Below are positions 1 to 64,000 of a stretch of 64,000 nucleotides of DNA, in pieces. The notes beneath the pieces were generated by a model. That model was not told the origin of the DNA and did not search any database. It was given only the letters and a program-made list of their open reading frames with translations. The position numbers and the translations under genes are program-made. The DNA is from Intrasporangium sp. (GTDB lineage: Bacteria; Actinomycetota; Actinomycetes; Actinomycetales; Dermatophilaceae). The DNA is taken from contig NZ_DASSMH010000115.1 of assembly GCF_035688975.1 (NCBI RefSeq), forward strand, positions 41,253-105,252, written 5' to 3'. Numbering within the stretch: position 1 is the stretch's first letter; every line of letters begins with the position of its first letter.

Positions 1-1253
1 AGCCGTCGACGCAGGAGCGGGACCGCCTCGACGAGGTGGCACGCACCGCCCGCGCGCTCGAGACCGAGCTGCGCCTCGGCCTGCGCACGAGGGAGGAGCG
101 GGCCCGCGCGCTGCACGACCGCGCCGCCGCGCTGGAGCGGTCCGCCGTCCATGAGGAGCAGGCGCGCGAGCGCCTCGCCGCCCGCCGCGAGCAGCGCCGG
201 CGGGAGGCCACCGTCGCCGAGGCGGTGCGGTGTGCCGCGGCATACGCCCACGACGTCCTCGTGAGCTCCGCGGAGCGGGCCGACCGGGCCCGCCTCGCCC
301 TCGAGGCGGAAGGCACCGACCGCGACGCCGAGCTGGCCATCGTGCGCCGGGACATCGGCACCCTGCAGGCGGAGCTGCGCGAGCTCACCGACACGGTGCA
401 CCGCGACGAGGTCGCCCGCACGCAGCAGCGGCTGCGCATCGAGCAGCTGCAGCAGAGGGCCGTCGAGGAGCTCGGCGTCTCCCCGGACGTCCTCGTCGAG
501 GACTACGGGCCCCACCGGCCCGTGCCCGTGCTGGCGGACGCCGGCGACGCGGGCGGGGAGCAGGCGCCGGAGGCGGTGCCGTTCGTGCGCGCGGAGCAGG
601 AGAAGCGGCTGCGCCGGGCCGAGCGCAGCCTCGGCGCCCTGGGCCGGGTCAACCCGCTCGCGCTCGAGGAGTACTCGGCGCTCGAGGAGCGGCACCGGTT
701 CCTCACCGAGCAGCTGGAGGACCTCAAGAGCTCCAAGCGCGACCTGCTCGACATCGTCAAGGAGGTGGACGACCGGGTGCAGCAGGTCTTCGCCGAGGCC
801 TTCGCCGACACGGCCGCCGCCTTCGAGGGCGTCTTCCAGCGGCTCTTTCCCGGCGGTGAGGGGCGCCTCGTGCTCACCGACCCCGGCGACCTGTTGACGA
901 CGGGGCTCGACGTCGAGGCCCGGCCGCCGGGCAAGAAGATCAAGCGGCTGTCCCTGCTGTCGGGCGGCGAACGGTCCCTGGTGGCCGTGGCCCTGCTCGT
1001 CGCCATCTTCAAGGCGCGTCCCAGCCCCTTCTACATCATGGACGAGGTGGAGGCAGCCCTCGACGATGCCAACCTCGGCCGCCTGCTGACCCTCTTCGAG
1101 GAGCTGCGGGACAGCTCGCAGCTCATCGTCATCACGCACCAGAAGAAGACGATGGAGATCGCCGACGCGCTCTACGGCGTGAGCATGCGTGGCGACGGGG
1201 TGACGACGGTCGTCTCGCAGCGTCTGCGCGACGTGGCGGACCAGCCCGCCTGA
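1..1253 (+). CDS. smc: Chromosome segregation protein SMC, C-terminal part (5' end lies upstream of the window)
   Basis: The frame is open from base 3. It encodes coiled-coil Ala/Arg/Glu-rich sequence, then the ABC signature LSGGERSLVAVALLVAIF and Walker B FYIMDEVEAALD. Stop at 1251-1253. Confidence 0.93.
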   Translation, partial: PSTQERDRLDEVARTARALETELRLGLRTREERARALHDRAAALERSAVHEEQARERLAARREQRRREATVAEAVRCAAAYAHDVLVSSAERADRARLALEAEGTDRDAELAIVRRDIGTLQAELRELTDTVHRDEVARTQQRLRIEQLQQRAVEELGVSPDVLVEDYGPHRPVPVLADAGDAGGEQAPEAVPFVRAEQEKRLRRAERSLGALGRVNPLALEEYSALEERHRFLTEQLEDLKSSKRDLLDIVKEVDDRVQQVFAEAFADTAAAFEGVFQRLFPGGEGRLVLTDPGDLLTTGLDVEARPPGKKIKRLSLLSGGERSLVAVALLVAIFKARPSPFYIMDEVEAALDDANLGRLLTLFEELRDSSQLIVITHQKKTMEIADALYGVSMRGDGVTTVVSQRLRDVADQPA

Positions 1254-1428
1254 CGCGGCCGACGCGCGTCCCAGTGGTCGGGTCGCGGGCCGTATGCCGC
1301 GCCGCTGGGGGGTCGCGGGCCCGGGCGGCCGGTGCGAAGGTCACGGGTCGGTTTCAGGTCGGCCACGTTTCGGTCCACGAGCGTGGGGCGTGACGGGGAC
1401 CGGTCGGTCGATCCGTCACTATTGTCCC

Positions 1429-1620
1429 ATGGTCTTCCTCGTGCTCGCGATGCTGGTCGCAACGGGTCTGGCGGTCGCGGTCGTCGGCGTCGTCGCGGTG
1501 CCTGCGCGCCGCAACGGCCGGGACGTGCTCACCGCCAAGGGCGAAGGAGTGCTCGAAGCCGCCCGCGAACGGGTCGGTGGCGTCGGCCGGTCCACGGCCG
1601 CCCGCACGCGCACGCACTGA
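1429..1620 (+). CDS. Hypothetical small membrane protein (63 aa, one TM helix)
   Basis: An internal ATG of ORF 1294..1620 gives MVFLVLAMLVATGLAVAVVGVVAV..., with GC-rich third codon positions. CACTAT/TATTGT lies just upstream, so a leaderless start is possible. No homology was recognised. Confidence 0.3.
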   Translation: MVFLVLAMLVATGLAVAVVGVVAVPARRNGRDVLTAKGEGVLEAARERVGGVGRSTAARTRTH

Positions 1621-1714
1621 CGCCACCGGCTGACCCCGGTTCCGCACCGACCGGGACCGCTCCAGCGCCGCCTGCCTGCTGTCGGCGGCCCGGGCACCAC
1701 CTGGGTCCGCCTGC

Positions 1715-1843
1715 GAATCAACTGGCGGATCACCTGGCATCTGCTGTCGCTCTGGCAGCACCACATGCCAGTTGATCGGCCAGTTGATCGCGCCCGGGTC
1801 CGTCGAAGCAGCACCAGGCGCCAGCTGATCTGCCAGTTGATCG
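1715..1843. repeat. Palindromic 12-mer-array element, copy A
   Basis: Left arm GAATCAACTGGC GGATCACCTGGC, a 28-nt core (..CTGGCAGCACC..) and right arm 2x GCCAGTTGATCG. A second core-like segment follows, then GCCAGCTGATCT GCCAGTTGATCG. Intergenic, upstream of ftsY. Confidence 0.85.
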
Positions 1844-1867
1844 GGGCCCGGCGCGTGGCCCACGCGC

Positions 1868-3158: not shown

Positions 3159-7315
<4,157 letters not shown>

Positions 7316-7928: not shown

Positions 7929-7976
7929 ACGGAGCGGCATACGGAGCGGCATACGGACCGGCATACGGACCGGGTG
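7929..7976. repeat. 12-bp tandem repeat x4 (ACGGAGCGGCAT-type), carrying three copies of octamer CGGCATAC
   Basis: Units at 7929-7940, 7941-7952, 7953-7964 and a degenerate one at 7965-7976. Lies in the divergent hemerythrin/ffh intergenic region. Confidence 0.9.
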
Positions 7977-8023: not shown

Positions 8024-9640
8024 GTGTTCGCATCCCTGTCTGACCGGCTGACCGCCACCTTCAAGAACCTGCGGGGCAAGGGCCGCCTGACGGAGTCCGA
8101 CGTCAACTCGACGGTCCGCGACATCCGGATGGCCCTGCTCGAGGCCGACGTGGCGCTGCCCGTCGTCAAGCGCTTCACCGCCCGGGTCCGGGAGCGGGCG
8201 CTCGGCGCGGAGGTCAGCCAGGCGCTCAACCCGGCGCAGCAGGTCGTCAAGATCGTCCAGGACGAGCTCGTCGGCATCCTCGGCGGGCGGACCCGCCCGA
8301 TCGAGCTGGCCAAGCAGCCGCCGACGGTGATCATGCTCGCCGGACTGCAGGGCTCCGGCAAGACGACGCTCGCCGGCAAGCTCGGCAGGTGGCTCAAGGA
8401 CCAGGGCCACACCCCGATCCTCGTCGCCGCCGACCTGCAACGCCCCAACGCCGTGACCCAGCTCGAGGTCGTCGCCGAGCGTGCGGGCGTGGCGGTCTTC
8501 GCGCCGGAGCGGGGCAACGTCGGCGGCCACGACGCCGTGCTGACCTCGGGCGAGGGCACGCACTCCTTCGGCGACCCGGTCGCGGTGGCTCGGATGGGCG
8601 TGGCGCAGGCGCGGGCGCGGCAGCACGACGTCGTCATCGTCGACACGGCGGGCCGGCTCGCGGTGGACGCCAACCTCATGCAGCAGGCGGCCGACATCCG
8701 CGCCGCCATCGAGCCGGACGAGGTCCTCTTCGTCATCGACGCCATGATCGGCCAGGCGGCCGTCGACACGGCCCACGCCTTCCAGGAGGGCGTCGCGTTC
8801 ACCGGTGTCGTGCTCACCAAGCTCGACGGCGACGCCCGTGGCGGTGCGGCGCTGTCGGTGGCGGAGATCACCCAGCGGCCCATCATGTTCGCGTCGACAG
8901 GCGAGAAGGTCACCGACTTCGAGGTCTTCCACCCGGACCGGATGGCGAGCCGCATCCTCGACATGGGTGACGTGCTCACCCTCATCGAGCAGGCCGAGAA
9001 GGCGTTCGACAAGCGCCACGCCGACGAGATGGCGCGCAAGTTCCTCGCCGAGGAGGACTTCACCTTCGAGGACTTCCTCCAGCAGATGAGCGCCATCAAG
9101 AAGATGGGCTCGCTCAAGGCGATGCTCAAGATGATGCCGGGCATGCAGCAGATGCGCGAGCAGCTCGACGCGTTCGACGACCGCGAGTTCGACCGCGTCG
9201 AGGCGATGGTCCGCTCGATGACGCCCTTCGAGCGCACCCATCCCAAGCAGATCAACGGCTCGCGCCGCGCCCGCATCGCCCGGGGTTCGGGTGTGACGGT
9301 GACCGACGTCAACCAGCTGCTCGAACGCTTCGGGCAGGCGCAGAAGATGATGAAGTCGCTCGCTCGCGGTGGTGGCGCCGGGATCCCCGGTATGCCGTCC
9401 ATCCCGGGTAGCGCCAAGCGCGGCAAGGCCCAGCCGCAGCGCAAGAAGAGCAAGAGCGGCAACCCCGCCAAGCGCGCCGCGGAGGAGCGCGCCCTGGCAC
9501 AGCGGGCGGCTGACGGTCGCGCGAGCGCGGCGGCAGGGGCCTTCGGGCTGCCGAGCGGAGGTGCCGACGGCGGCGCGCCGCTGGAGCTGGACCCGGCGAA
9601 CCTGCCCAAGGGCTTCGACAAGTTCCTCGGCGGCCGCTGA
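8024..9640 (+). CDS. ffh: Signal recognition particle protein Ffh
   Basis: MFASLSDRLTATFKNLRGKGRLTE. NG domain (GLQGSGKTTLAGKLG, DTAGR, TKLDGDARGG), Met-rich M domain and a basic C-terminal tail. Confidence 0.96.
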   Translation: MFASLSDRLTATFKNLRGKGRLTESDVNSTVRDIRMALLEADVALPVVKRFTARVRERALGAEVSQALNPAQQVVKIVQDELVGILGGRTRPIELAKQPPTVIMLAGLQGSGKTTLAGKLGRWLKDQGHTPILVAADLQRPNAVTQLEVVAERAGVAVFAPERGNVGGHDAVLTSGEGTHSFGDPVAVARMGVAQARARQHDVVIVDTAGRLAVDANLMQQAADIRAAIEPDEVLFVIDAMIGQAAVDTAHAFQEGVAFTGVVLTKLDGDARGGAALSVAEITQRPIMFASTGEKVTDFEVFHPDRMASRILDMGDVLTLIEQAEKAFDKRHADEMARKFLAEEDFTFEDFLQQMSAIKKMGSLKAMLKMMPGMQQMREQLDAFDDREFDRVEAMVRSMTPFERTHPKQINGSRRARIARGSGVTVTDVNQLLERFGQAQKMMKSLARGGGAGIPGMPSIPGSAKRGKAQPQRKKSKSGNPAKRAAEERALAQRAADGRASAAAGAFGLPSGGADGGAPLELDPANLPKGFDKFLGGR

Positions 9641-9670
9641 GGCAGGTCACCACGACGAGCCCGTATGCCG

Positions 9671-14275: not shown

Positions 14276-14345
14276 GCGTGGTCGTCCGGTCGTCTTCCGT
14301 ATGCCGTGCCGCCCCGCTGCCGTCCCGCCTGAGAGGATGCCCGGC

Positions 14346-14879
14346 ATGAGCGTCGTCCTCGCCCGCATCGGCAAGCCCCACGGACTGCACGGCGAGGTCA
14401 CCGTGCAGCTGCACACCGACAGCCCCGAGACCCGCTTCGCCGAGGGTGCCGTCCTCGACACGCAGGCGGCCCCCGGGTCAGGGGTGCCGCACCGGCTGAC
14501 GATCCGGTCGACGCGCGTGCACAACGGCATCTGGCTGCTCGCCTTCGCCGAGGTCCCGGACCGGACCGGCGCCGAGGGACTGCGCGGCACCCGGCTCGTC
14601 CTCGACGAGGCGGCCGTGGAGCCCGACGAGGACGACGACGGCTTCTACGAGGAGGAGCTCGTCGGCCTCGAGGTGCGCGACCCGGCCGGCCACGTCCTCG
14701 GCACCGTGACGGGGCTCGAGGTGGGCGTGGCCCAGGACCGGCTCGTGCTCGAGCTCAGCGACGGCGTCACGGCATACGTGCCCTTCGTGGAGCAGATCGT
14801 GCCGGCGGTCGAGTCGGACCACGTCGTCGTCGACGCACCCGCGGGACTGTTCGACCTCTACCGCGAGGGGACCCGGTGA
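14346..14879 (+). CDS. rimM: 16S rRNA processing protein RimM
   Basis: [31 protein letters not shown]... PRC-barrel C-terminus. Conserved operon position. Confidence 0.92.
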
Positions 14880-25482: not shown

Positions 25483-25522
25483 ACCGGCATGGTAGACGGC
25501 GACGCCCCGCACGCGCCCGCGC

Positions 25523-32438: not shown

Positions 32439-32492
32439 GCCGCCTCCCGGTATGCCGGTCCACCCACCCACCCACTCGAAGGAGGCCTTCCC

Positions 32493-49578: not shown

Positions 49579-49613
49579 GTCGTGCTCGCTCCCTCGCGCG
49601 GTATGCCGCCCGT

Positions 49614-53657: not shown

Positions 53658-55610
53658 TCACGGTCGGGGGACGAGCAGGTCGTCGAGGGACACGGCGACC
53701 GGCGCGTTCGTGACCGTCGTCGGCAGGTACGGTGCCACACCGACGGCCCCGGCTGTCTGCAGGCTGGCTGTGCTGTCCGTCGCCGACCTGGTCCAGGCGG
53801 CCGGCTCGGGGCTGCCCTGCGGCCACACCTTGGCGCGAAGCGTCGTCGGCGACGTGCCGGCGACCTCCATCCGCACCGCCAGCCTCGTGTTCGGCGAGTA
53901 GACGACGCCGGGCAGCGCGACGGCCGGTTGCAGCGTCGCCTCCACGCCACCGCTGAACCGCGTCAGCGCCACCGAGACCGCGCCACTCGCGGCCACGCTC
54001 ACCTTGGCACGATACGTGCCGACCGACGGCACCCACCGGCCGAGGACGCTGACCACGGCGGTGCCGCCGGTCGGCACCTTGTCCAGGCCGATGGTCGCGG
54101 TCACGGCGGCCGTCGTGGTGGAGACCTGCTTGAGCACGGCACTCGGCCCGCTGCCTGCCGTGAGGCGGACGACGCCCAGCGAGCCGTCGACGGCGAAGGC
54201 GGAGGAGGTGCCGGTGAGCGTCCACGGACCGCCCACGTCCGCGGAGCCCCAGCCGCCCGCCACCGTGCGGCCGAAGGAGTCGGCGGCCAGAGCGGTGGGG
54301 GCGGGGGGCGGCACGGTCACCGTGACCGGCCGGCTCGACACGCCGCTCGCCCCGGCGCTGTCCTGCACGGTGAGGGTGACGGTGTAGGTGCCGGCGGCAG
54401 GGAAGGTGTGGGCCACCGTGACACCGGTGCCCGGCGCCGACCCGTCCCCGAAGTCCCACGAGTAGCCCTGCACGGGGCCCTCGGCATCCGAGGAGGCGGA
54501 GGCGTCGAAGGCGCACGCGAGGTCGGTGCAGCTCGCGGAGAAGACCGCGGTGGGCGGCTGGTCCTCCCCGGGCAGGGGGTCGCGCAGGACGAACGAGTCG
54601 GTGAAGGTGCTCGTGCCGACGGGGAGGAACTGTGCGCTCAGCGAGCTCGCCGTCGCGGAGAGGCTGAGCACCCCGAACGGCCCACCCTGGTTCAGCCCCG
54701 CATACGTCGCGAAGTACGGCGCCTCCGGGTCGGCCGGGGACGCGTCGCGCAGCGCGACGCCGCCGGTCCCCACGGTCGCGAACACGGTCCCGGCCCCGCG
54801 CATCATGGTGGCGTCGCCGTCCGCGACGCAGTCCGGGTCGAACGTGCCGGGAACGATGCCGGGGCAGGCCGCGCCCAGCCGCAGCTGGTGGGTCCGCTGG
54901 TAGAGGTGCTCGTGGCCGTTGAGGACGAGGTCGACGCGCTTGTCGACGAGCAGGTTGGTGATGTCGGTGTTGCCGCCGCAGGTGTACTGGCCGACCGAGA
55001 TGCACGGCTTGTGCAGGCCGACGACCACCCAGCGCACGCCCTTGGCGCGGGCGGCGTCGATCGCGTTGGCCGTCCACGCATACCTGGCGGTGCCGGCGGC
55101 ATACGACCACGTGCCGTCAGGGAAGGTCAGGTCCGGGGAGATCCCGATGAAGCGGACGAGCGGGTTGGTCTCGGGGACGTCGGCATACCACTGCCGTCCG
55201 TAGGTGCCCACCAGCCCGGGCAGCTGGTTGGGCAGGCACGCGGAGAAGTCGTTGATGTTCCCGTTCATCCCCCCGCTCTCGTGGCTGCCGGCGATGAGCT
55301 CGAAGGGGAACCCCGCGCCGACCTTGGAGACCACGAGGTCGCACCAGGCCGACTCCTGGCCCGTGACGCCGTACGACAGGTCCCCGAGGGCGAGGTTGAG
55401 GTCCGGCGCCGTCTCGGCCACCTTGTCGAGGACGAGCTGAGTCTGGGGACTGTTGGCGTAGTCCCCGGCAGCCGTGAAGTGCACCTCGCCCGGCACGGCG
55501 ACGGCCGCCTCTGCGGTGGCGGGACCAGATCCCCCCGAGCCGAGCAGACCGGGGAGGCCGGCGAGGAGGGCGGCGGCGGCGACGGCGGCGACGGTGGCTC
55601 GACCACGCAT
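53658..55610 (-). CDS. Secreted metallophosphoesterase with a PKD domain and a C-terminal beta-sandwich (LamG-like) domain
   Basis: Signal peptide MRGRATVAAVAAAALLAG. Motifs GDY/GDLSY/GSHE/GHEHLYQR. PKD-like YSWDFGDGS...TYTVTLTVQD. About 220 aa of C-terminal domain of unknown function. Confidence 0.8.
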   Translation of the reverse strand: MRGRATVAAVAAAALLAGLPGLLGSGGSGPATAEAAVAVPGEVHFTAAGDYANSPQTQLVLDKVAETAPDLNLALGDLSYGVTGQESAWCDLVVSKVGAGFPFELIAGSHESGGMNGNINDFSACLPNQLPGLVGTYGRQWYADVPETNPLVRFIGISPDLTFPDGTWSYAAGTARYAWTANAIDAARAKGVRWVVVGLHKPCISVGQYTCGGNTDITNLLVDKRVDLVLNGHEHLYQRTHQLRLGAACPGIVPGTFDPDCVADGDATMMRGAGTVFATVGTGGVALRDASPADPEAPYFATYAGLNQGGPFGVLSLSATASSLSAQFLPVGTSTFTDSFVLRDPLPGEDQPPTAVFSASCTDLACAFDASASSDAEGPVQGYSWDFGDGSAPGTGVTVAHTFPAAGTYTVTLTVQDSAGASGVSSRPVTVTVPPPAPTALAADSFGRTVAGGWGSADVGGPWTLTGTSSAFAVDGSLGVVRLTAGSGPSAVLKQVSTTTAAVTATIGLDKVPTGGTAVVSVLGRWVPSVGTYRAKVSVAASGAVSVALTRFSGGVEATLQPAVALPGVVYSPNTRLAVRMEVAGTSPTTLRAKVWPQGSPEPAAWTRSATDSTASLQTAGAVGVAPYLPTTVTNAPVAVSLDDLLVPRP

Positions 55611-56676: not shown

Positions 56677-58446
56677 GTGCCCCTGCGCATGTCGTCCCTG
56701 TTCCTGCGAACTCTGCGCGAGGACCCGGCCGACGCGGAGGTGCCGAGCCACCGGCTGCTCGTCCGGGCCGGGTACGTGCGGCGGGTCAGCCCCGGCATCT
56801 ACACCTGGCTCCCGCTGGGGCTGCGCGTGCTGCGCAACGTCGAGCGCATCGTCCGCGAGGAGATGGACGCCATCGGCGCCCAGGAGCTGATCTTCCCGGC
56901 CCTGCTGCCGCGGGAGCCCTACGAGACGACCGGTCGGTGGACGGAGTACGGCGAGAACCTCTTCCGCCTGACCGACCGCAAGGGCGGGGACTACCTGCTC
57001 GGGCCGACTCACGAGGAGATGTTCACGCTCGCCGTGAAGGACCTGTTCGGCTCCTACAAGGACCTGCCGCTCACGCTCTACCAGATCCAGAACAAGTACC
57101 GGGACGAGGCGCGTCCGCGCGCCGGCGTGCTGCGCGGGCGCGAGTTCGTCATGAAGGACTCGTACTCCTTCGACGTCGACGGGGCCGGGCTCGACGCGGC
57201 CTACGAGGCCCATCGCGGCGCCTACGTGCGGATCTTCGACCGCCTCGGGTTCGACTACGTCATCGTGCGCGCGATGGCCGGCGCGATGGGCGGCAGCAAG
57301 AGCGAGGAGTTCCTCGCCACGGCGGAGAACGGCGAGGACACCTACGTCCGCTCCACAGGCGGGTCGTATGCCGCCAACGTCGAGGCGGTGGTCGTGCCGC
57401 AGGCCGAGCCCGTCGACTGCTCCGCCGTGCCGGCCGCGCACGTCGAGGACACGCCTGACACGCCGACCATCGAGACGCTCGTCGCCTCGGCGAACGCGCA
57501 CCACCCACGCGCCGACGGGCGCCCCTGGACGGCGGCGGACACGCTCAAGAACGTGCTCGTCATGCTCGTGCACCCCGACGGACGCCGCGAACCGCTCGCC
57601 ATCGGGCTTCCCGGCGACCGAGAGGTCGACGTGAAGCGGCTGGAGGCCCAGGTGGCGCCGGCGGAGGTGGCGGCCTTCGAGGACAAGGACTTCGCGCGGC
57701 ATACGGGACTGGTCAAGGGCTACATCGGCCCCGGCGCGCTGGGCGAGAAGCGGCCCACCGGCATCCGCTACCTGCTCGACCCGCGGGTCGCCGTGGGGTC
57801 TGCGTGGATCACCGGCGCCGACGAGCCCGGGCGGCACGTCTTCGACCTCGTCCACGGCCGCGACTTCACGGGCGACGGCACCATCCAGGCCGCCGAGGTC
57901 CGCGACGGCGACCCGGCCCCGGACGGCAGCGGCACGCTCGTCACCGCGCGCGGCATCGAGATGGGCCACATCTTCCAGCTCGGCACGAAGTACGCCGAGG
58001 CGCTCGACCTCAAGGTGCTCGACCAGCACGGCAAGCTCGTGACGGTCACAATGGGCTCCTACGGCGTCGGGGTGTCGCGGGCGGTCGGCTGCGTCGCCGA
58101 GGGCAACCACGACGAGGCGGGGCTCATCTGGCCGCGCGAGCTCTCGCCCGTCGACGTGCACATCGTCGCGACGGGCAAGGACGAGGCGGTGCACGCCAAG
58201 GCGGAGCAGGTCGCGGCCTCCCTCGAGGCGCGGGGCGTCTCCTCGCTGCTCGACGACCGGCGGCAGGCCAGCCCGGGCGTGAAGTTCAAGGACGCGGAGC
58301 TGATCGGCGTGCCGACGATCGTCGTCGTCGGCAAGGGCCTCGCCACCGGGGTCGTCGAGATCAAGGACCGGCGCAGCGGCGAGCGGCGCGAGGTGGGAGT
58401 CGACGAGGTGGTCGAGGCGATCGTCGCGGAGGTCCGCGGCTCGTGA
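56677..58446 (+). CDS. proS: Proline--tRNA ligase (bacterial type with INS editing domain)
   Basis: [32 protein letters not shown]..., [27 protein letters not shown] and C-terminal anticodon-binding domain. ATG 56689 is an alternative start. Confidence 0.95.
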
Positions 58447-59255: not shown

Positions 59256-60752
59256 TCAGGCGGCCAGCACGCTGAGGAGGTGACGTTCGAGCGCGCTCGG
59301 TGGCGCGGTGGCCAGGCCCGGGACGAGGGGTGGTGCGGTCGAGGCATAGGTGTGCCCGGTGGGCGTGGTGGTCTCGACCGTATGCCGTCGGCGGGACCTT
59401 CCGATGCCGGGCGGAAGCGTGCGGGCATGCCAGCCGGGGTGCTGCTTCGCATGGTTGCACCGGACGCACAGCCCTTGACCGTTGTCCGCATGCGTGGGTC
59501 CCCCCGCGGCGTGCTCGACGACATGGTCGAGGTGGCGGATCGGGGCGTCGCACCACGGGGTCCGGCAGGTGCCGGCGTCGCGGGTGACGAGGTAGCGGCG
59601 CAGTGCGCCGTCGAAGACGCGGCGGGTGGAGTCCATCGCCACGAGCGTGCCGTCGGCGGGGTGCGTGTAGAGCCGTCGGAGCCAGGCCCGAGCCGCGGCC
59701 GACGCGGAGTCCGCTGGGGCGCTGGTCGTGAGCAGGTCGCGGGCCCAGGAGGCCGGCACGGTGCCGTAACCGGTCAGCTGGGCGGGCGTGTCGTCCCCGG
59801 CGAGCAGCGCCCGGTCCGTCATGACGAGCTGCACCTCGACCGGGACCGCCTCGGCCGTGCTCTGACCGGTGACGCGGGTGACCAGGGTGTCGGCCATGAC
59901 CTGACCCTTGGACCGCGCGTCGCCGGCGGCGCGTGCGGTGTCGGCCGCGACGGTGAGGCTGGCCTGGACCGCCACAGCCTGCGCCACGGGAAGCAACGCG
60001 GTCAGGTAGGCCATCGTGTCCGGTGCCGGGCGAGTCGTGACCCGCCGATCGGACTCGGCACGCCGGCTGCGAGCCACGACCGACGCGGCGTCGATGCGGT
60101 AGGCGATCGCCTGCACGCGCCGGACGAGCTCTCGGTCCCCGAGCGATCCCAGCCGCTCACCCTGGTCCGCCAGGGGTCCCGCGATCTGCGCGTCGACGAC
60201 GGTGCGCTGCTCCGGCGTCAGGACGGCGGTCTCACGAACGATGAGCATGGCCCTCCACTCGGTGAGCTCTCCCGCCTCGAGGGCGGCCAGGGTGTGCGGC
60301 ATCTGCCCGGTGAGGGTCAGCGCGAGGTTGAGGTGCCGGGCGCCCTGCGTGGGGGACTCTCGGCGTGCGAGCGCCACCTGGGCCGCGATGCCGGTGCCAG
60401 CTCGAGGCCCTCGCGGTCGTCGCTCGGAGCGCCCACCGCGGGGGCCGCTGACCGCCTCGTCCGGGACCGAGGCGCGACGCGCCTGGTCGCGGGCCGCACG
60501 CCATCCGTCGAAGTCGCCCCGGTCGGAACACTCCCGCGCCCGCTCGCGCCACTCGGCAGCCACCTGCTCCTGAGAGCGGACCAAGGCGGCGGTGACCCGC
60601 ACCTGCGCGGCCGCCAGCGCGGCCTTGGCGCGCTCCAGCAGTGCGAGCTGGTCGATGCGCTCACGGTCATCGACCCGGTCGTCGAGGCGCGGCAGGGCGG
60701 TGACGAGGGCCTCCAGGTCCCCCGTCGACAGCCTCCCTGCGGACTCGTTCAT
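59256..60752 (-). CDS. DUF222 / HNH endonuclease domain protein (REP13E12-like family)
   Basis: DUF222 N-terminal region. C-terminal CRTPWCDAPIRHLDHVVEHAAGGPTHADNGQGLCVRCNHAK (HNH). TATAAT at 60760-60765 (- strand) ends 7 nt before the ATG. Confidence 0.85.
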   Translation of the reverse strand: MNESAGRLSTGDLEALVTALPRLDDRVDDRERIDQLALLERAKAALAAAQVRVTAALVRSQEQVAAEWRERARECSDRGDFDGWRAARDQARRASVPDEAVSGPRGGRSERRPRGPRAGTGIAAQVALARRESPTQGARHLNLALTLTGQMPHTLAALEAGELTEWRAMLIVRETAVLTPEQRTVVDAQIAGPLADQGERLGSLGDRELVRRVQAIAYRIDAASVVARSRRAESDRRVTTRPAPDTMAYLTALLPVAQAVAVQASLTVAADTARAAGDARSKGQVMADTLVTRVTGQSTAEAVPVEVQLVMTDRALLAGDDTPAQLTGYGTVPASWARDLLTTSAPADSASAAARAWLRRLYTHPADGTLVAMDSTRRVFDGALRRYLVTRDAGTCRTPWCDAPIRHLDHVVEHAAGGPTHADNGQGLCVRCNHAKQHPGWHARTLPPGIGRSRRRHTVETTTPTGHTYASTAPPLVPGLATAPPSALERHLLSVLAA

Positions 60753-60835: not shown

Positions 60836-62296
60836 GTGCACAGCGGCCACCCGCACCGTGGAGGCATGAGCGCAGGAGTCGTCACCGAGCCGCACGGCAT
60901 ACCCGTGCCGTCCCCCGCCCGTGCTGCGCTGCCGAGGCTGCCGAGGCCCGTGCCCCTCTGGTGGCGGGACGTGTCCGGCGCGCTGGCGTGGGGGCTCGTC
61001 CTCTTCGTCGTCGGTCTCTGGGTGGCGGGTGGCGGGCTTACCGCCTTCGGCACCACCGGCGACGCCATGACGACCCTCGGTCGACTCGCCGGCCTCCTCT
61101 CCTCCGTGCTCATCCTGATCCAGGTGCTGCTCATGGCCCGGATCCCCATGGTCGAGCAGGCCTGGGGACAGGACGAGCTGGCGCGGGTCCACCGCGTCGT
61201 CGGGTTCACCAGCTTCAGCCTCATGCTGGCCCACATCGGGCTGGTCATCGTCGGGTATGCCGCCGGCACGAGCCTCGGCGTGGTCGGCACCTTCGTCGAC
61301 CAGGTGCTGCACTCGCCCGGCATGCTGCTCGCCCTTGCCGGCACCGTGGCCCTCGTCATGGTCGTCGCCACCTCGATCCGCAAGGCGCGCGCGAGGCTGC
61401 GCTACGAGTCCTGGCACCTGCTGCACCTCTATGCCTACCTCGGCGCCGGGCTGGCGCTGCCGCACCAGCTGTGGACGGGCCAGGACTTCCGGTCGAGCGC
61501 CGTGGCCACCGTCTTCTGGTGGGGCCTGTATGCCGCCACGCTGGCCGCCGTCCTCGTCTTCCGCCTCGCCCTGCCGGCCGTCCGCTCGGCGAGGCACCGC
61601 CTCGTCGTGGCGGACGTCGTCGCCGAGTCGCCCACGGTCACGAGCGTCGTCATCACCGGGAGGGCGCTCGAGCGGCTGCCCGCGCGGGCCGGGCAGTTCT
61701 TCCAGTGGCGCTTCCTCGACGGGCCCGGGTCGAGCCGGGCCAAGCCCTTCTCCCTGTCGGCCGCACCGGACGGGCGCAGCCTGCGCCTCACGGGTGAGGC
61801 CGTCGGCCCGGGGTCCGGCCGGCTTCGCAGTCTCCGCCCCGGCACGAAGGTGCTGCTCGAGGGTCCCTACGGCCGGCTCCACGCAGGCACCAAGGTCCGG
61901 CAGCGAAGCGTGCTGATCGGCGCCGGCATCGGGATCACGCCGCTGCGGGCCCTCCTCGAGGAGCTGCCGGCGGGGCCGGACGAGACCGTGCTCATCTACC
62001 GGGTCGGCAGCACCGAGGACATCGTCCTCGCCGACGAGCTCGTCGAGCTCGCTCGCTCCAAGGGCGCCCGCGTCGTCGCCGTCGTCGGTCACCGGGCGCC
62101 CGACCGTGACAGCTGGCTGCCCGCGCAGCTCGGCCACCTCGGGGACGCCGAGGCGCTGCTGCGCATCGTTCCCGACGTGGCGCAGCGTGACGTCTTCGTC
62201 TGCGGCAACCCCGCGTGGATGCGGTCCGTCATGGGGGCGGCCCGCGCGGCGGGCGTGCCGGAGCAGGCCCTGCACTCCGAACGCTTCAGCTACTGA
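60836..62296 (+). CDS. Ferric reductase-like transmembrane domain fused to an FAD/NAD(P)-binding (FNR-like) domain
   Basis: 6-TM haem-binding-type domain (HRVVGFTSFSLMLAHI, HLLHLYAYLGAGLALPHQLW). Then RPFSLSA, GPYG and GAGIGITP motifs. Start uncertain (GTG 60836 or ATG 60866). Confidence 0.8.
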   Translation: MHSGHPHRGGMSAGVVTEPHGIPVPSPARAALPRLPRPVPLWWRDVSGALAWGLVLFVVGLWVAGGGLTAFGTTGDAMTTLGRLAGLLSSVLILIQVLLMARIPMVEQAWGQDELARVHRVVGFTSFSLMLAHIGLVIVGYAAGTSLGVVGTFVDQVLHSPGMLLALAGTVALVMVVATSIRKARARLRYESWHLLHLYAYLGAGLALPHQLWTGQDFRSSAVATVFWWGLYAATLAAVLVFRLALPAVRSARHRLVVADVVAESPTVTSVVITGRALERLPARAGQFFQWRFLDGPGSSRAKPFSLSAAPDGRSLRLTGEAVGPGSGRLRSLRPGTKVLLEGPYGRLHAGTKVRQRSVLIGAGIGITPLRALLEELPAGPDETVLIYRVGSTEDIVLADELVELARSKGARVVAVVGHRAPDRDSWLPAQLGHLGDAEALLRIVPDVAQRDVFVCGNPAWMRSVMGAARAAGVPEQALHSERFSY

Positions 62297-62340
62297 CCAC
62301 CGGCCCGTCGGACCGGGCACCCCGCGACAAAGGAGACCCC

Positions 62341-62808
62341 ATGCGCCGCATCGTCACGTGGGCCATGAGCACGCTGACCGTCCTCGTCCTGCTCTTCAGC
62401 TACAGCACGTCCCGGTCGTCTCAGCCGGTCGCCGCCACGGCCGAGACACGCCGGGTCACCACGACGACGACGCAGCACTCGGCGGCCACGTCGGGCTCCT
62501 CCGGCTCGTCGCCCACGTCCGCGGCGGCTGCCGCCCGCACCGTCACCGGCGACGAAGCCATGACCCGCTACGGGGTGGTCCAGGTCCAGATCACGGTGCA
62601 GGACGGCAAGATCACCAAGTCGGAGGCCGTCCAGGCGCCGTCGGAGAACCGCCACGACCAGATGATCAACAGCCAGGCCGTCCCGGTCTACAACGACGAG
62701 GTCGTCGCCGCGCAGTCCGCCGGCATCGACATGGTGTCGGGCGCCACGGTGACCTACGACGGCTACGTCCAGTCCCTCCAGTCGGCCATCGACAAGGCGA
62801 ACCTGTGA
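62341..62808 (+). CDS. Membrane-anchored FMN-binding domain protein
   Basis: AAGGAG at 62330-62335. N-terminal TM segment and a Ser/Thr-rich linker. The FMN_bind domain ends ...GIDMVSGATVTYDGY, the flavinylation-type motif (S/T)GAT. Confidence 0.8.
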   Translation: MRRIVTWAMSTLTVLVLLFSYSTSRSSQPVAATAETRRVTTTTTQHSAATSGSSGSSPTSAAAAARTVTGDEAMTRYGVVQVQITVQDGKITKSEAVQAPSENRHDQMINSQAVPVYNDEVVAAQSAGIDMVSGATVTYDGYVQSLQSAIDKANL

Positions 62809-63578
62809 CCGATCCCGTCGTGTCGCACGGCCCGCCCCCGCGCCGGGCGTGGGTCGAGCACGTCATGGGTATGCCGGTGAGCATCCACGTGCGCGGGGCC
62901 GCCGCGGACTCCGCGCTGACCCGCCAGGCCGTCATGGCGGCATACGAGGTCTTCCACGACCTGGACCGGGTGTTCTCGACCTACCGCGCCGACTCCGACC
63001 TCATGCGCTTGCGTCGAGGCGAGGTCGATCTCGACGCGTGCAGTCCACTCGTGGCCCAGGCGCTGGCGCTCGGCGAGGAGGCAGCGCGGCGCACGGGGGG
63101 TGCGTTCACGACGAGTCTCCCGACCGCGGACGGTGGGCTCGCCCTCGACCTCACCGGACTGGTCAAGGGCTGGGCGGTCGATCGCGCAGCCGAGCAACTC
63201 CGTCCGCTGGCGCGGATCTCCTTCTGCATCAACGCCGGTGGTGACCTGCTCGTGGGCGCGTCGGCCGGTCTGCCGGCGTGCGGCCCTGGGGCGATCGACT
63301 GGCGCATCGGCATCGAGGACCCGGCGGATCGCTCGCGCATCGCCACGACGGTGTCCCTGACGGCCGGAGCGGTGGCGACGTCCGGGACCGCTGCGCGCGG
63401 TGCCCACCTCTACGACCCGGCCACCGGCTGCATGGTCGGGCGCACCGGGTCCGTGACCGTCGTGGGGCCGACCCTGCTGTGGGCCGACGTGTGGGCCACC
63501 GCGCTGTTCGTCGGCGGCGGCGCCGCCTCGCGGGCCTTTGCGCGCGAGGCGCCGGGCTACCGCTCGCTGGGGCTGTAG
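62805..63578 (+). CDS. apbE: FAD:protein FMN transferase (ApbE family)
   Basis: The GTG overlaps the upstream stop (GTGA). MGMPVSIHVRG..., FSTYRADSDLMRLRRGE, LTGLVKGWAVDRA and ATSGTAARG. Confidence 0.85.
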   Translation: MTDPVVSHGPPPRRAWVEHVMGMPVSIHVRGAAADSALTRQAVMAAYEVFHDLDRVFSTYRADSDLMRLRRGEVDLDACSPLVAQALALGEEAARRTGGAFTTSLPTADGGLALDLTGLVKGWAVDRAAEQLRPLARISFCINAGGDLLVGASAGLPACGPGAIDWRIGIEDPADRSRIATTVSLTAGAVATSGTAARGAHLYDPATGCMVGRTGSVTVVGPTLLWADVWATALFVGGGAASRAFAREAPGYRSLGL

Positions 63579-63633
63579 ACCGACGGTCGGGCGGGCAAGG
63601 CTGACGGCAGTCGCGCACTTGTTGGCAGGAGAC

Positions 63634-64000
63634 TCACCAGCGGTGGGCCACGTCGATGACGAGCCTCGACCCGGATCCGGGCCCAGCGAGGGTGAACACT
63701 CGGAACGGCAAGCGTGCCCGCACGCCGAGTCCCAAGGTGTTGTTGCTCTCCCAGAGCTCGACCCAGGCGACCTGCCGGAAGGTGCGCCAGCCGGTGACGT
63801 CAACCAGCTCGGCGCGACTGGCCGGGTGGTACCTGGTCTGGGTGTCAGGGCCGTAGGGCTCCGCGACGACGATCTCGAGGAGCGCACCGCCGCGCAGGTC
63901 GACCGGCTGGGCGAGGCCCAGCCCGGCGATGGCCGGCACGTAGCGAACAGAGAACCCGCCGCTGCGTCCCTCGAAGTCGAGGACCAGCCGGTCGAAGCAC
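63634..64000 (-). CDS. AMIN-like / GerMN-type domain protein, C-terminal part (5' end beyond the window)
   Basis: The frame stays open to base 64000: ...FDRLVLDFEGRSGGFSVRYVPAIAGLGLAQPVDLRGGALLEIVV...RLVIDVAHRW. The track Met at 63939 is an internal GTG. Confidence 0.55.
   Translation of the reverse strand, partial: CFDRLVLDFEGRSGGFSVRYVPAIAGLGLAQPVDLRGGALLEIVVAEPYGPDTQTRYHPASRAELVDVTGWRTFRQVAWVELWESNNTLGLGVRARLPFRVFTLAGPGSGSRLVIDVAHRW

What the first reader, a model, noticed from the sequence alone, without database searches (positions are those of the whole stretch)
1..64000. Octamer CGGCATAC/GTATGCCG occurs about once per kb in both orientations and recruits rare codons (uptake-sequence-like signature)
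A by-eye scan finds at least 56 perfect copies. On the + strand, 29 read GTATGCCG: 1292, 5770, 7198, 9390, 9663, 12616, 14299, 16078, 18914, 26512, 28705, 32450, 34933, 35171, 37128, 37641, 40878, 44388, 44569, 45179, 46493, 47099, 49601, 50871, 57366, 59380, 61255, 61528 and 62869. Another 27 read CGGCATAC: 238, 4493, 7935, 7947, 7959, 12384, 13203, 14770, 15927, 18886, 24621, 25101, 25477, 32756, 36695, 37928, 39500, 39713, 41640, 45692, 48359, 50027, 55097, 55181, 57697, 60895 and 62938. With a rough base-composition model (assuming about 70-72% GC, not computed), an octamer with three A/T would be expected only about 2-3 times on both strands. Inside genes the word sits in all three frames. 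It is accommodated by codons otherwise avoided here: TAT-GCC (5771 and 7199 in glnD), GCA-TAC (12385, 13204), ATA for Ile (15931 in trmD, where all other Tyr codons I read are TAC) and ATG-CCG (including the start codon of the aminotransferase at 25482). This points to selection on the DNA word rather than on protein. The balanced orientation argues against Chi- or KOPS-type polar signals. The density and orientation-independence resemble DNA uptake sequences (Neisseria DUS, Pasteurellaceae USS), which to my knowledge are not described in Actinobacteria. comM and dprA are present in the window. Alternatives are a nucleoid-protein or methyltransferase target, or a mismatch-repair bias.
Basis: partly seen in the sequence, partly recalled or inferred. 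Interest (0 to 1): 0.85.

Follow-up and report, generated by a model that had tools for sequence, protein, structure and literature searches.

The report
Genome-wide hyper-abundant octamer with dialects
An eight-letter DNA word, GTATGCCG, is written about once per thousand bases in both orientations across this actinobacterial genome and its whole family, overriding normal codon choice and changing "spelling" in some lineages, much like the DNA-uptake tags of Neisseria and Haemophilus, which have not been described in this phylum.

Summary
The window (72.7% GC, from an Intrasporangium-like MAG) holds 56 exact copies, 29 on + and 27 on -. Shuffle, low-order Markov and synonymous-codon nulls expect 1-3. 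The word is a sharp 8-mer with almost no flank consensus and no halo of one-mismatch variants. It lies in unrelated genes and intergenic DNA with random spacing.

It fills nearly every synonymous "slot": 22 TAT to 1 TAC in G|TAY|GCC|G, and 6 of the 7 ATA codons lie in the word. The same word sits at 0.3-1.5 per kb in about 70 related Intrasporangiaceae/Dermatophilaceae loci and in 13 unrelated metagenome contigs. It shows no leading-strand bias.

Lineages that lack it carry one-step variants at the same density. GGATGCCG arose at least twice and recruits its own rare codons; GGATGMCG and GACGAAGGGG are seen in single loci. Sites are conserved more than other 8-mers, and in high-density lineages compatible peptides are enriched.

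This excludes repeats, peptides and Chi/KOPS-type polar signals. The best reading is a DUS/USS/HIP1-like self-recognition word spread by biased DNA import (confidence about 0.4). Uptake, the reader protein and methylation are untested. No paper in the library contains the word.

The parts
238..245 (-). copy in smc; codons GCG-GCA-TAC (AAY)
1292..1299 (+). copy, intergenic, 39 nt after smc stop
4493..4500 (-). copy in amt; ACG-GCA-TAC (TAY)
5770..5777 (+). copy in glnD; GCG-TAT-GCC-GTC (AYAV); kept in 28/68 relatives
7198..7205 (+). copy in glnD; ACG-TAT-GCC-GGT (TYAG); kept in 41/69 relatives
7935..7942 (-). copy 1 of a 12-bp tandem triple upstream of/at 5' end of hemerythrin-domain gene
7947..7954 (-). 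copy 2 of the 12-bp tandem triple
7959..7966 (-). copy 3 of the 12-bp tandem triple; kept in 9/12 aligned relatives
9390..9397 (+). copy in ffh; GGT-ATG-CCG (GMP); lineage-specific (5/80)
9663..9670 (+). copy, intergenic, 23 nt after ffh stop
12384..12391 (-). copy in GNAT gene; GCG-GCA-TAC (AAY)
12616..12623 (+). copy in GNAT gene; CCG-TAT-GCC-GGG (PYAG); kept in 26/44
13203..13210 (-). copy in GNAT gene; GCG-GCA-TAC (AAY)
14299..14306 (+). copy, intergenic, upstream of rimM
14770..14777 (-). copy in rimM; ACG-GCA-TAC (TAY)
15927..15934 (-). copy in trmD-GNAT; GAC-GGC-ATA-CGG (DGIR), rare ATA; kept in 20/33
16078..16085 (+). copy, intergenic, upstream of rplS; kept in 18/23
18886..18893 (-). 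copy in rnhB; CCG-GCA-TAC (PAY); inverted pair with 18914
18914..18921 (+). copy in rnhB; GGG-TAT-GCC-GCT (GYAA)
24621..24628 (-). copy in aminotransferase I/II (- gene); GTG-TAT-GCC-GGG (VYAG)
25101..25108 (-). copy in aminotransferase I/II; TCG-TAT-GCC-GCG (SYAA)
25477..25484 (-). copy at 5' end of aminotransferase I/II; GGT-ATG-CCG (possible start codon, not verified)
26512..26519 (+). copy, intergenic between two - strand genes
28705..28712 (+). copy at 5' end of rpsB ORF; ACG-TAT-GCC-GTC
32450..32457 (+). copy, intergenic between DsrC-like and DsrE-like genes
32756..32763 (-). copy in DsrE-like gene; GGC-GGC-ATA-CCG (GGIP), rare ATA
35171..35178 (+). copy in cdsA; GGG-TAT-GCC-GCG (GYAA)
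36695..36702 (-). copy in rlmN; CAC-GGC-ATA-CCG (HGIP), rare ATA
37128..37135 (+). copy in acs; GCG-TAT-GCC-GAG (AYAE)
37641..37648 (+). copy in acs; GGG-TAT-GCC-GTG (GYAV)
37928..37935 (-). copy in acs; GCG-GCA-TAC (AAY)
39500..39507 (-). copy in SLOG/LOG-like gene (-); GGG-TAT-GCC-GCC (GYAA)
39713..39720 (-). copy in SLOG/LOG-like gene (-); CTG-TAT-GCC-GGG (LYAG)
40878..40885 (+). copy in membrane transporter gene; ACG-TAT-GCC-GTG (TYAV)
41640..41647 (-). copy in unknown ORF (-); CCG-TAT-GCC-GTG (PYAV)
44388..44395 (+). copy in aminotransferase III (-); ACC-GGC-ATA-CCG (TGIP), rare ATA
44569..44576 (+). copy in aminotransferase III (-); GCG-GCA-TAC (AAY)
45179..45186 (+). copy in Lrp/AsnC regulator (-); GTC-GGC-ATA-CGG (VGIR), rare ATA
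45692..45699 (-). copy in aldehyde dehydrogenase; GCG-GCA-TAC (AAY)
46493..46500 (+). copy in aldehyde dehydrogenase; GGT-ATG-CCG (GMP)
47099..47106 (+). copy in arginase-family gene; TCG-TAT-GCC-GGT (SYAG)
48359..48366 (-). copy in second aldehyde dehydrogenase; GCG-GCA-TAC (AAY)
49601..49608 (+). copy, intergenic, 23 nt after aldehyde dehydrogenase stop
50027..50034 (-). copy in dxr; GCG-GCA-TAC (AAY)
50871..50878 (+). copy in dxr; GCG-TAT-GCC-GCC (AYAA)
55097..55104 (-). copy in metallophosphoesterase/PKD gene (-); TCG-TAT-GCC-GCC (SYAA)
55181..55188 (-). copy in metallophosphoesterase/PKD gene (-); TGG-TAT-GCC-GAC (WYAD)
57366..57373 (+). copy in proS; TCG-TAT-GCC-GCC (SYAA)
57697..57704 (-). 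copy in proS; CGG-CAT-ACG (RHT), rare CAT
59380..59387 (+). copy in DUF222/HNH gene (-); CGG-CAT-ACG (RHT)
60895..60902 (-). copy in unknown ORF; CAC-GGC-ATA-CCC (HGIP), rare ATA
61255..61262 (+). copy in unknown ORF; GGG-TAT-GCC-GCC (GYAA)
61528..61535 (+). copy in unknown ORF; CTG-TAT-GCC-GCC (LYAA)
62869..62876 (+). copy in unknown ORF; GGT-ATG-CCG (GMP)
62938..62945 (-). copy in unknown ORF; GCG-GCA-TAC (AAY)

Best explanation
GTATGCCG is a DNA-level 'self' word of the DUS/USS/HIP1 kind. A sequence-specific protein reads the double-stranded octamer in either orientation during import of DNA from relatives. The most likely route is natural transformation, which in Actinobacteria is known from Micrococcus luteus and uses Flp/Tad pili plus ComEA/ComEC. 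Fragments that carry the word would be taken up or retained preferentially and recombined into the genome. Any substitution that creates the word would then be over-transmitted, and any that destroys it under-transmitted. This is molecular drive, a word-specific biased gene conversion.

The word therefore accumulates wherever the protein code tolerates it, against codon bias.

Shown here:
- The word-directed force.
- Its strength and its phylogenetic spread.
- The dialect switches.
- The lack of strand polarity.

Inferred, not shown:
- That these bacteria are transformable.
For: (1) Abundance. The window has 56 copies against about 1-3 expected. About 70 related loci have 0.3-1.5 per kb. Thirteen metagenome contigs from other genomic places have 1.06 per kb.

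(2) Form and placement. It is a discrete 8-mer without conserved flanks. It occurs in all usable reading frames and in both orientations relative to genes (28:20). Spacing is random, CV 1.01.

(3) The force acts on DNA, at many positions and through different mutation types. In 1.33 Mb pooled:
- G|TAY|GCC|G is 256 TAT to 29 TAC, against 65:244 elsewhere. The odds ratio is about 33.
- xCG|GCN|TAC is 123 GCA to 69 GCC, against 11:288 elsewhere.
- C|GGC|ATH|C is 68 ATA to 180 ATC, against 9:943 elsewhere.
Slot saturation scales with density. For the Tyr-Ala slot it is 98%, 91%, 77% and 17% in high-, mid-, low- and no-word lineages.

(4) Dialects, as in DUS. GGATGCCG reaches 0.74-1.2 per kb in L043, L044, L066 and L070, where GTATGCCG is 0-0.23 per kb. 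It has its own rare-codon recruitment: G|GAY|GCC|G is 20 GAT to 2 GAC against 12:113 elsewhere, and xCG|GCN|TCC is 12 GCA to 4 GCC against 2:20. It arose in two separate clades. After the switch, old sites became preferred codons or the new word.

(5) No replication-strand bias: 435:383 where + is the leading strand.

(6) Sites are conserved more than other 8-mers, yet turn over at family depth.

(7) In high-density lineages, compatible peptides are enriched in the same genes. YA[AGVDE] has OR 1.9, p=0.003. [SPTA]AY has OR 2.7, p=3e-4. Control peptides are flat. From my own knowledge, USS do the same in Pasteurellaceae.

(8) Noncoding DNA is about 2-3 times denser than coding DNA in pooled loci, as expected when only coding constraint limits a drive.

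(9) The one sequenced phage of a family member, TJE1, has chance numbers: 2 copies in 49 kb.

(10) Literature context. Flp-pilus-dependent transformation exists in an actinobacterium (PMC4322843). DUS dialects co-evolve with ComP (PMC3868556). HIP1 is now proposed to be an uptake tag (bioRxiv 10.64898/2026.06.24.733823).
Against: - No evidence here that any Intrasporangiaceae is naturally transformable. The library search found none.
- No receptor, comEA/comEC or pilus genes could be examined. The dprA and comM genes in the window are ubiquitous and are word-free.
- One-mismatch forms are not over-represented: (O-E)/E is -0.16 or +0.22. In H. influenzae and N. gonorrhoeae the values are +2.0 and +4.8.
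- Copies are not concentrated in terminators or inverted pairs, unlike about half of DUS/USS. Only 7-8 of 56 are intergenic, there is one close inverted pair, and none of the 19 copies in 1-20 kb overlaps a terminator-like site.
- Weak selection for any other genome-wide function could produce the same codon signal, given large population sizes.
Confidence: 0.4

Rival explanations
1. A methylation- or repair-coupled ratchet, as in the original HIP1 model. A methyltransferase or another modification enzyme recognises the octamer. A repair process directed by the modified parental strand preferentially restores damaged sites and keeps new ones. Sites then accumulate without any DNA import.
For: - The definition is very sharp, with no one-mismatch halo. 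That fits enzyme-grade specificity.
- Sites are conserved above background.
- Dialects that differ by single bases are typical of changes in methyltransferase target-recognition domains. This rests on my own knowledge.
- HIP variants have been tied to methyltransferases (Elhai 2015, as summarised in bioRxiv 10.64898/2026.06.24.733823).
Against: - No methyltransferase gene lies in the window.
- Actinobacteria lack MutS/MutL/MutH, so no known strand-directed system could run the ratchet. This rests on my own knowledge.
- A ratchet lowers the loss of sites but does not speed their gain. It therefore explains poorly the rapid, complete replacement of the word after a dialect switch.
- No methylome data were available.
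Confidence: 0.2
2. A Chi-like control sequence for an end-processing helicase-nuclease (AdnAB or RecBCD). It marks own DNA and switches degradation to recombination. It would be kept in both orientations because most breaks in these soil bacteria are two-ended.
For: - An 8-mer at roughly kilobase spacing, with species-specific words that change between lineages, is Chi-like.
- No Chi sequence is known for AdnAB, to my knowledge.
Against: - There is no leading-strand bias: 29:27 in the window and 435:383 in pooled syntenic loci where 86% of gene bases are on +. Known Chi sites are skewed and only a few-fold enriched. The library holds a survey of Chi motifs in Proteobacteria (PMC8022716, listed), which I did not read.
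- Enrichment of about 20-50-fold, with near-saturating recruitment of rare codons, is far beyond that of known Chi sites.
- Phage TJE1 shows no enrichment.
Confidence: 0.12
3. Binding sites of an abundant chromosome-organising or segregation protein, or of a conjugative FtsK/TraB-type translocase. Translocases of this kind read 8-bp words through winged-helix gamma domains.
For: - The word length is 8 bp, as for KOPS, SRS and TraB TRS. This rests on my own knowledge.
- Distribution is genome-wide.
- A 12-bp tandem triple lies in a divergent promoter region at 7929-7973 and is conserved in relatives.
Against: - Translocase guide words must be polar; these are not.
- Known nucleoid proteins have degenerate sites and tens to hundreds of specific sites, not thousands of exact 16-bit sites. 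This rests on my own knowledge.
- Spacing is random, CV 1.01.
- TraB clt sites are local clusters, not spread at 1 per kb.
Confidence: 0.1
4. A trivial origin: a dispersed repeat or mobile-element remnant, a repeated peptide, or a single mutational hot spot such as 5mC deamination.
For: Three copies form a tandem repeat at 7935-7966. GTACGCCG>GTATGCCG is a CpG transition.
Against: - Flanks are unrelated.
- Orthologues align without indels and differ by substitutions at positions 1, 2, 4, 7 and 8.
- Five reading frames are used.
- The codon-shuffle null gives 1.6 against 48 observed.
- Gains need C>T, C>A and G>T changes at different positions.
- The separate repeat family of the window (GATCAACTGGC arrays) does not contain the word.
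Confidence: 0.02

Closest known systems
DNA uptake sequences of Neisseriaceae (DUS, 10-12 nt, read by the minor pilin ComP)
   Same: - About one exact copy per kb on both strands without replication polarity.
- Copies arise by substitution.
- Related lineages carry dialects that differ by one or two bases, with the old word replaced (PMC3868556).
   Different: - The word is 8 nt, or 9-10 nt in some lineages.
- It lies mostly inside genes rather than in inverted-repeat terminators.
- It has no halo of one-mismatch forms.
- The phylum differs, the cells have one membrane, and no type IV pilus or ComP is known. Uptake bias is not shown.
Uptake signal sequences of Pasteurellaceae (USS, 9-nt core plus AT-rich flanks)
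   Same: - Similar density.
- A large share of copies lies in coding DNA, in preferred reading frames.
- There is a measurable effect on encoded peptides. The USS counterpart of this effect rests on my own knowledge.
- There are two or more dialects.
   Different: - No extended flanking consensus.
- The word runs against genome composition: three A/T in a 73% GC genome.
- The receptor is unknown in both cases.
HIP1 (GCGATCGC) and other highly iterated palindromes of cyanobacteria
   Same: - An octamer at roughly kilobase density.
- It propagates by substitutions, is conserved in coding and noncoding DNA, and has lineage variants.
- Its function was long unknown, and it is now proposed to be a transformation tag.
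   Different: - It is not a palindrome.
- Spacing is random, not quasi-periodic.
- No link to a methyltransferase is known.
Chi sites (RecBCD/AddAB)
   Same: A short species-specific word, over-represented, that differs between lineages.
   Different: - No strand skew.
- Enrichment about ten times stronger.
- It recruits rare rather than common codons.
KOPS / SRS / TraB-TRS 8-mers read by FtsK-family translocases
   Same: The word length is 8 bp, and it is read as double-stranded DNA.
   Different: Those words are strongly polar (KOPS, SRS) or locally clustered (TRS). This word is non-polar and dispersed.

Membership tests
DNA uptake sequences (DUS/USS) | A short exact word, hugely over-represented (about 1 per kb) across the genome on both strands | tested here: met
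   The window has 56 copies against 1-3 expected. Relatives have 0.3-1.5 per kb. Unrelated contigs have 1.06 per kb.
DNA uptake sequences (DUS/USS) | Competent cells preferentially take up DNA that carries the word | not testable with these tools
   This needs uptake or transformation competition assays.
DNA uptake sequences (DUS/USS) | A competence machinery with a sequence-specific receptor in the same genomes | not tested
   Only dprA and comM were seen, and both are near-ubiquitous. comEA, comEC and pilus genes lie outside the DNA available.
DNA uptake sequences (DUS/USS) | Lineage-specific dialects that replace one another | tested here: met
   GGATGCCG appears in two clades with its own codon recruitment. 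L077 has GGATGMCG, L080 has GACGAAGGGG, and L055 and L079 have GTATGCCGCG.
DNA uptake sequences (DUS/USS) | Graded over-representation of one-mismatch forms | tested here: not met
   The one-mismatch class has (O-E)/E of -0.16 (composition) or +0.22 (order-1 Markov). DUS/USS show +2.0 and +4.8.
DNA uptake sequences (DUS/USS) | About half of the copies lie in terminators, often as inverted pairs | tested here: not met
   48 of 56 copies are in genes. One close inverted pair lies inside rnhB. No copy in 1-20 kb overlaps a terminator-like site. The test is weak because terminators are poorly predicted in high-GC DNA.
Chi sites | Orientation bias towards the leading strand | tested here: not met
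   29:27 in the window. 435:383 in syntenic loci co-oriented with replication.
Chi sites | Alters the activity of RecBCD, AddAB or AdnAB | not testable with these tools
   This needs biochemistry.
KOPS/SRS-type architecture-imparting sequences | Strong replichore-dependent polarity | tested here: not met
   Same counts as for Chi. Only one replichore was sampled, but within it the word is not polar.
HIP-type highly iterated octamers | A hyper-abundant octamer that propagates by substitution and is conserved in coding and noncoding DNA | tested here: met
HIP-type highly iterated octamers | Palindromic, and contains the site of a resident methyltransferase | tested here: not met
   GTATGCCG is not a palindrome (read directly from the sequence). 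Methylation and methyltransferases were not testable.
REP/MITE-like dispersed repeats | Copies share extended flanks or structure and arise by insertion | tested here: not met
   Flanks are not conserved. Orthologous sites differ by substitutions without indels.

The most novel reading that the evidence does not exclude
This would be the first uptake-sequence-type self-recognition system in Actinobacteria, and in any Gram-positive lineage. An 8-10 bp word is read by an unknown receptor, possibly part of a Flp/Tad-pilus and ComEA import route. Word and receptor co-evolve through one-base dialect steps across a whole family of soil and sludge bacteria. That would imply frequent natural transformation in a group where none is documented.

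A still more novel reading is also not excluded: the drive is independent of DNA import, that is, a word-specific repair or conversion process in a phylum that lacks MutS/MutL.
Probability: 0.4. Interest if true: 0.92.

Novelty: new variant of a known kind. Interest (0 to 1): 0.85.

Why it matters
Uptake tags are known from only two proteobacterial families, with HIP1 of cyanobacteria as a recent candidate. A comparable signature in high-GC Gram-positive bacteria matters for several reasons.

- It would point to unrecognised, frequent and kin-biased gene exchange in abundant soil and activated-sludge actinobacteria.
- It offers natural reciprocal test pairs. Sister lineages use GTATGCCG or GGATGCCG, so the reader protein can be sought by phylogenetic co-variation.
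- It gives a practical handle for transforming genetically intractable genera, by adding the word to donor DNA.
- Whatever the mechanism, it is a clear case of a DNA-level force that overrides codon bias, alters protein sequences and switches specificity. That bears on models of molecular drive.
- The word can also serve as a marker to bin metagenomic contigs and to flag foreign DNA.

Tried and rejected
- Exact-protein look-ups of two window proteins found nothing, probably because of GTG-start translation. The source was later identified through P0001.
I rejected it as circular.
- A viral-contig scan for two words within 31 nt returned only chance or tandem hits and no word-rich high-GC virus.
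- A search for plasmids of the family found none in PLSDB. A guessed accession, AP008980, was absent. Density on plasmids versus the chromosome was therefore not tested.
- Two protein searches (Ffh, L19), meant to reach other actinobacterial families, returned only in-family hits. Spread outside Intrasporangiaceae/Dermatophilaceae is unknown.
- Rfam and tRNA scans of the window found nothing.
- The terminator scan found nothing overlapping the words.
- Literature searches found no paper with the octamer in this context, and nothing on competence in this family.
- Considered and rejected: repeat element, repeated peptide, single deamination hot spot, RNA-level signal (both gene orientations are used), primase or Okazaki start site and KOPS (both need polarity), and regular structural spacing (CV 1.01).

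Full report
**1. Observation**

The window is 64,000 bp and 72.7% GC. GTATGCCG occurs 29 times on the + strand and its complement CGGCATAC 27 times, 56 in all.

Chance expectations are:
- 1.07 +/- 1.01 (maximum 5) in dinucleotide-preserving shuffles.
- 0.87 under an order-1 Markov model and 2.57 under order 3.
- 1.6 +/- 1.2 when synonymous codons are shuffled among positions, keeping every protein and the codon usage. Against this, 48 copies are observed inside genes.

It is the top-ranked 8-mer. That is only because the 7-mers exist almost solely inside the word (TATGCCG 56 of 56). The test is circular here and does not count against the finding.

**2. Anatomy**

Aligned copies share nothing beyond the octamer.

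Single-mismatch variants are at background. Most occur 0-2 times; the GC-richer GGATGCCG occurs 16 times and GCATGCCG 7 times.

I made gene calls from GC3 periodicity, checked by Pfam. With these, 48 copies lie in about 35 unrelated genes and 7-8 in intergenic DNA. That is proportional to the 90% coding fraction. Orientation relative to the gene is 28 same and 20 opposite. Spacing is random, with CV 1.01. The largest gap, 5.7 kb, is within the random range.

The window is a conserved core segment: smc-ftsY-amt-glnD-ffh ... rimM-trmD-rplS-lepB-rnhB-DUF2469-yraN-comM-dprA ... rpsB-tsf-pyrH-frr-cdsA-rlmN-acs ... dxr-rseP-ispG-proS. It holds no methyltransferase, pilus gene or comEA/comEC gene (same Pfam calls). 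It holds no Rfam family and no tRNA.

**3. The force acts on DNA**

Five reading frames are used:

| Frame | Peptide | Copies |
|---|---|---|
| G\|TAT\|GCC\|G | Tyr-Ala | 22 |
| xCG\|GCA\|TAC | Ala-Tyr | 12 |
| C\|GGC\|ATA\|C | Gly-Ile | 6 |
| xGT\|ATG\|CCG | Met-Pro | 6 |
| CGG\|CAT\|ACx | Arg-His-Thr | 2 |

In the window:
- 22 of the 40 TAT codons (302 TAC) and 6 of the 7 ATA codons (610 ATC) lie in the word.
- In the context G|TAY|GCC|G the ratio is 22 TAT to 1 TAC. Other Tyr-Ala pairs are 5:29.
- In xCG|GCN|TAC the ratio is 12 GCA to 2 GCC. Elsewhere it is 1:23.

Reaching the word from the preferred codons needs C>T, C>A or G>T changes at different positions of the octamer. A single mutational hot spot cannot explain that.

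**4. Source and spread**

The Ffh protein of the window is identical to one annotated 'MAG TPA: Intrasporangium sp.' on a 109-kb contig.

Eighty syntenic ffh loci from one genome per species are all Intrasporangiaceae/Dermatophilaceae. They include Terrabacter, Intrasporangium, Humibacillus, Pedococcus, Phycicoccus, Knoellia and Lapillicoccus. About 70 of them carry the word at 0.3-0.7 per kb, and six carry 1.0-1.5 per kb. The expectation is about 0.02-0.03 per kb.

Pooled over 1.33 Mb, the codon signal is overwhelming:

| Context | Word codon : preferred codon | Elsewhere |
|---|---|---|
| G\|TAY\|GCC\|G | 256 TAT : 29 TAC | 65:244 |
| xCG\|GCN\|TAC | 123 GCA : 69 GCC | 11:288 |
| C\|GGC\|ATH\|C | 68 ATA : 180 ATC | 9:943 |
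| CGG\|CAY\|AC | 25 CAT : 43 CAC | 26:303 |

The Tyr-Ala odds ratio of about 33 corresponds, by inference, to a scaled advantage of about 3.5 over the codon preference.

A pattern scan of metagenomes returned 13 high-GC contigs from other genomic places, 105 kb in all. Beyond the seed pair they carry 1.06 copies per kb. The signature is therefore genome-wide and not a property of the ffh region.

**5. No polarity**

Three complete or near-complete chromosomes place the ffh locus so that its genes run with replication: positions 0.68 (reversed), 0.68 (reversed) and 0.36 (forward). This assumes the records start near dnaA.

In locus coordinates, 86% of gene bases are on +, yet the word is 435 on + and 383 on - (53:47, p=0.07). 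This rejects Chi-, KOPS- and primase-type polar signals.

In the pooled loci 65% of copies are in called genes, against 86% of bases. Noncoding DNA is thus about 2-3 times denser. Two caveats apply: the gene calls are crude and the loci are phylogenetically non-independent.

**6. Dialects**

Loci that lack GTATGCCG are not empty.
- L043 and L044 (two Humibacillus lineages) and L066 and L070 carry GGATGCCG at 0.74-1.2 per kb, against 0.1-0.3 elsewhere. That is 84 copies against about 8 expected.
- This variant recruits its own rare codons there. G|GAY|GCC|G is 20 GAT to 2 GAC against 12:113 in other flanks. xCG|GCN|TCC is 12 GCA to 4 GCC against 2:20. The same contexts are ordinary in GTATGCCG lineages.
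- L077 carries both GGATGCCG and CGGATGACG, that is GGATGMCG.
- L080 (Marihabitans MAG) carries the unrelated GACGAAGGGG at 1 per kb.
- L055 and L079 extend the word to GTATGCCGCG.
- High-density lineages prefer G rather than C at -1.

The L077 and L080 words rest on single loci and are tentative.

An Ffh tree and pairwise identities show that GTATGCCG occurs in all major clades, so it is ancestral. They also show that the T>G switch arose at least twice. One switch is inside the Terrabacter/Humibacillus clade and one is next to Knoellia/Pedococcus.

At orthologous positions after a switch, old sites have become preferred codons (CTACGCCG, GTACGCCG, GTAGGCCG). Where the change is synonymous, they have become the new word. 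New sites came from GGACGCCG or CGACGCCG.

**7. Maintenance and reach**

Some window sites are shared by most relatives: 7198 in 41 of 69, 12616 in 26 of 44, and the intergenic 16078 in 18 of 23. Others are private: 9390 in 5 of 80.

Between related genomes, word sites are conserved more than all other 8-mers:
- 9 of 11 against 0.27, p=2.5e-4.
- 8 of 8 against 0.33.
- 15 of 20 against 0.41.

Saturation of synonymous slots scales with density:

| Lineage group | Tyr-Ala | Ala-Tyr | Arg-His-Thr | Met-Pro | Gly-Ile |
|---|---|---|---|---|---|
| High density | 98% | 90% | 73% | 75% | 35% |
| Mid density | 91% | 58% | 33% | 51% | 27% |
| Low density | 77% | 50% | 0% | 32% | 22% |
| No word | 17% | 0% | 14% | 0% | 0% |

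The number of Tyr-Ala slots per 1000 codons rises from 0.21 through 0.49 and 0.77 to 1.26.

In high-density lineages the compatible peptides are themselves enriched in the same genes. YA[AGVDE] has odds ratio 1.9, p=0.003. [SPTA]AY has odds ratio 2.7, p=3e-4. Control peptides are unchanged. The word therefore also shapes protein sequence.

**8. What it is not**

- It is not a dispersed repeat. Flanks are unrelated, and orthologues differ by substitutions without indels.
- It is not a peptide effect.
- It is not the other repeat family of the window, the GATCAACTGGC arrays, which do not contain the word.
- It is not an RNA-level signal, because both gene orientations are used.
- It is not a polar chromosome signal.

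**9. Mechanism**

Three facts need explaining: a word-specific directional force, a reader of about 16 bits specificity that works in either orientation, and stepwise changes of specificity followed by turnover of thousands of sites.

The known systems that behave this way are the uptake sequences. DUS dialects co-evolve with ComP (PMC3868556). USS, DUS and their one-mismatch spectra are described in PMC1939737. Their placement is described in bioRxiv 10.1101/2025.10.24.684340. HIP1 of cyanobacteria also behaves this way and is now proposed to be a methylation-dependent transformation tag (bioRxiv 10.64898/2026.06.24.733823).

Natural transformation exists in Actinobacteria. In Micrococcus luteus it depends on Flp/Tad pili and ComEA/ComEC (PMC4322843, PMC8467076).

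I therefore rank first a self-recognition word spread by biased import and recombination, at confidence 0.4.

Differences from DUS/USS are real:
- There is no excess of one-mismatch forms. (O-E)/E is -0.16 or +0.22, against +2.0 and +4.8.
- There is no concentration in terminators or inverted pairs.
- The word is shorter.

Rivals are:
- A methylation- or repair-coupled ratchet (0.2).
- A non-skewed Chi-like nuclease signal (0.12).
- Sites of a chromosome-binding or translocase protein (0.1).
- Trivial origins (0.02).

The single phage known for the family, TJE1, has 2 copies in 49 kb, which is chance. That fits chromosome-specific accumulation but is weak evidence.

**10. Novelty**

Full-text searches found no paper that contains either strand of the octamer in this context. 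They found nothing on uptake sequences, Chi or competence in this family. Within that library the signature is undescribed.

I classify it as a new variant of a known kind, hyper-abundant self-words of the DUS/USS/HIP type. It occurs in a new phylum and has an unknown reader.

**11. Limits**

- Only 64 kb of the source genome and about 21 kb per relative were available.
- Pooled counts are phylogenetically non-independent.
- Gene calls in relatives are heuristic.
- The Ffh tree is a single-gene neighbour-joining tree.
- Spread outside the family, density in plasmids and prophages, competence genes, methylation and the reader protein could not be examined.

Noticed in passing
window 1717-1842, 9698-9829, 10933-11018, 49621-49736: A second, unrelated over-represented word: 18 exact ATCAACTGGC copies against 0.1 expected. 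It forms intergenic arrays of a 12-bp unit (GATCAACTGGCN). There are 2-5 direct copies on each side of a 25-30 nt GC-rich core, in inverted orientation, always just downstream of genes. The arrays look REP/BIME- or MITE-like. Relatives carry a different unit in the same kind of array (GATCAGTCTGC in L006 and L029). A GTATGCCG copy lies 5' of the arrays at 9663 and 49601 but is not part of them.
   Followed up: partly
window 7929-7973: GTATGCCG itself forms a 3.8-copy 12-bp tandem (unit ACGGACCGGCAT on +). It lies in the divergent region between the hemerythrin-domain gene (-) and ffh (+). The copy at 7959 is kept in 9 of 12 aligned relatives. The ATG inside that copy opens the longest ORF of the hemerythrin gene.
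   Followed up: partly
window 11015-11191; 19379-19444; 43437-43518: Further intergenic tandem repeats. There is a 24-bp GC-rich unit repeated 7.5 times. There is a 13-bp unit GTCCACACCGAGC repeated 5 times between DUF2469 and yraN. There is a 13-bp unit TCTCAGCGGTGGT repeated 6.3 times upstream of the class III aminotransferase.
   Followed up: no
window 14896-16065: trmD (tRNA m1G37 methyltransferase) is fused in one ORF to a C-terminal GNAT acetyltransferase domain.
   Followed up: no
window 59256-60752 (-): A DUF222 plus HNH endonuclease gene (REP13E12-like, often mobile in Actinobacteria) lies beside proS. It contains one copy of the word.
   Followed up: no
window 18921-24621: The longest word-free stretch (5.7 kb) holds DUF2469, yraN, comM and dprA. 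The gap is within the random expectation (median maximum gap 4962, 95th percentile 7469).
   Followed up: yes
L080 (Marihabitans MAG) whole locus; L077 whole locus: Candidate unrelated or further-diverged words. L080 has GACGAAGGGG, 14 dispersed copies in 14 kb in both orientations. L077 has CGGATGACG together with GGATGCCG. Each is seen in a single locus only, and codon recruitment was not tested.
   Followed up: partly
L066 whole locus: A mixed state: 20 GGATGCCG and 5 GTATGCCG, with all 5 of the latter on the + strand. It may be a lineage caught in transition between dialects.
   Followed up: no
L061 15983-16100: A coding 9-bp tandem repeat (CTTGTCAGC/CTTCTCGAC units) that mimicked an over-represented 8-mer in the k-mer screen.
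   Followed up: yes
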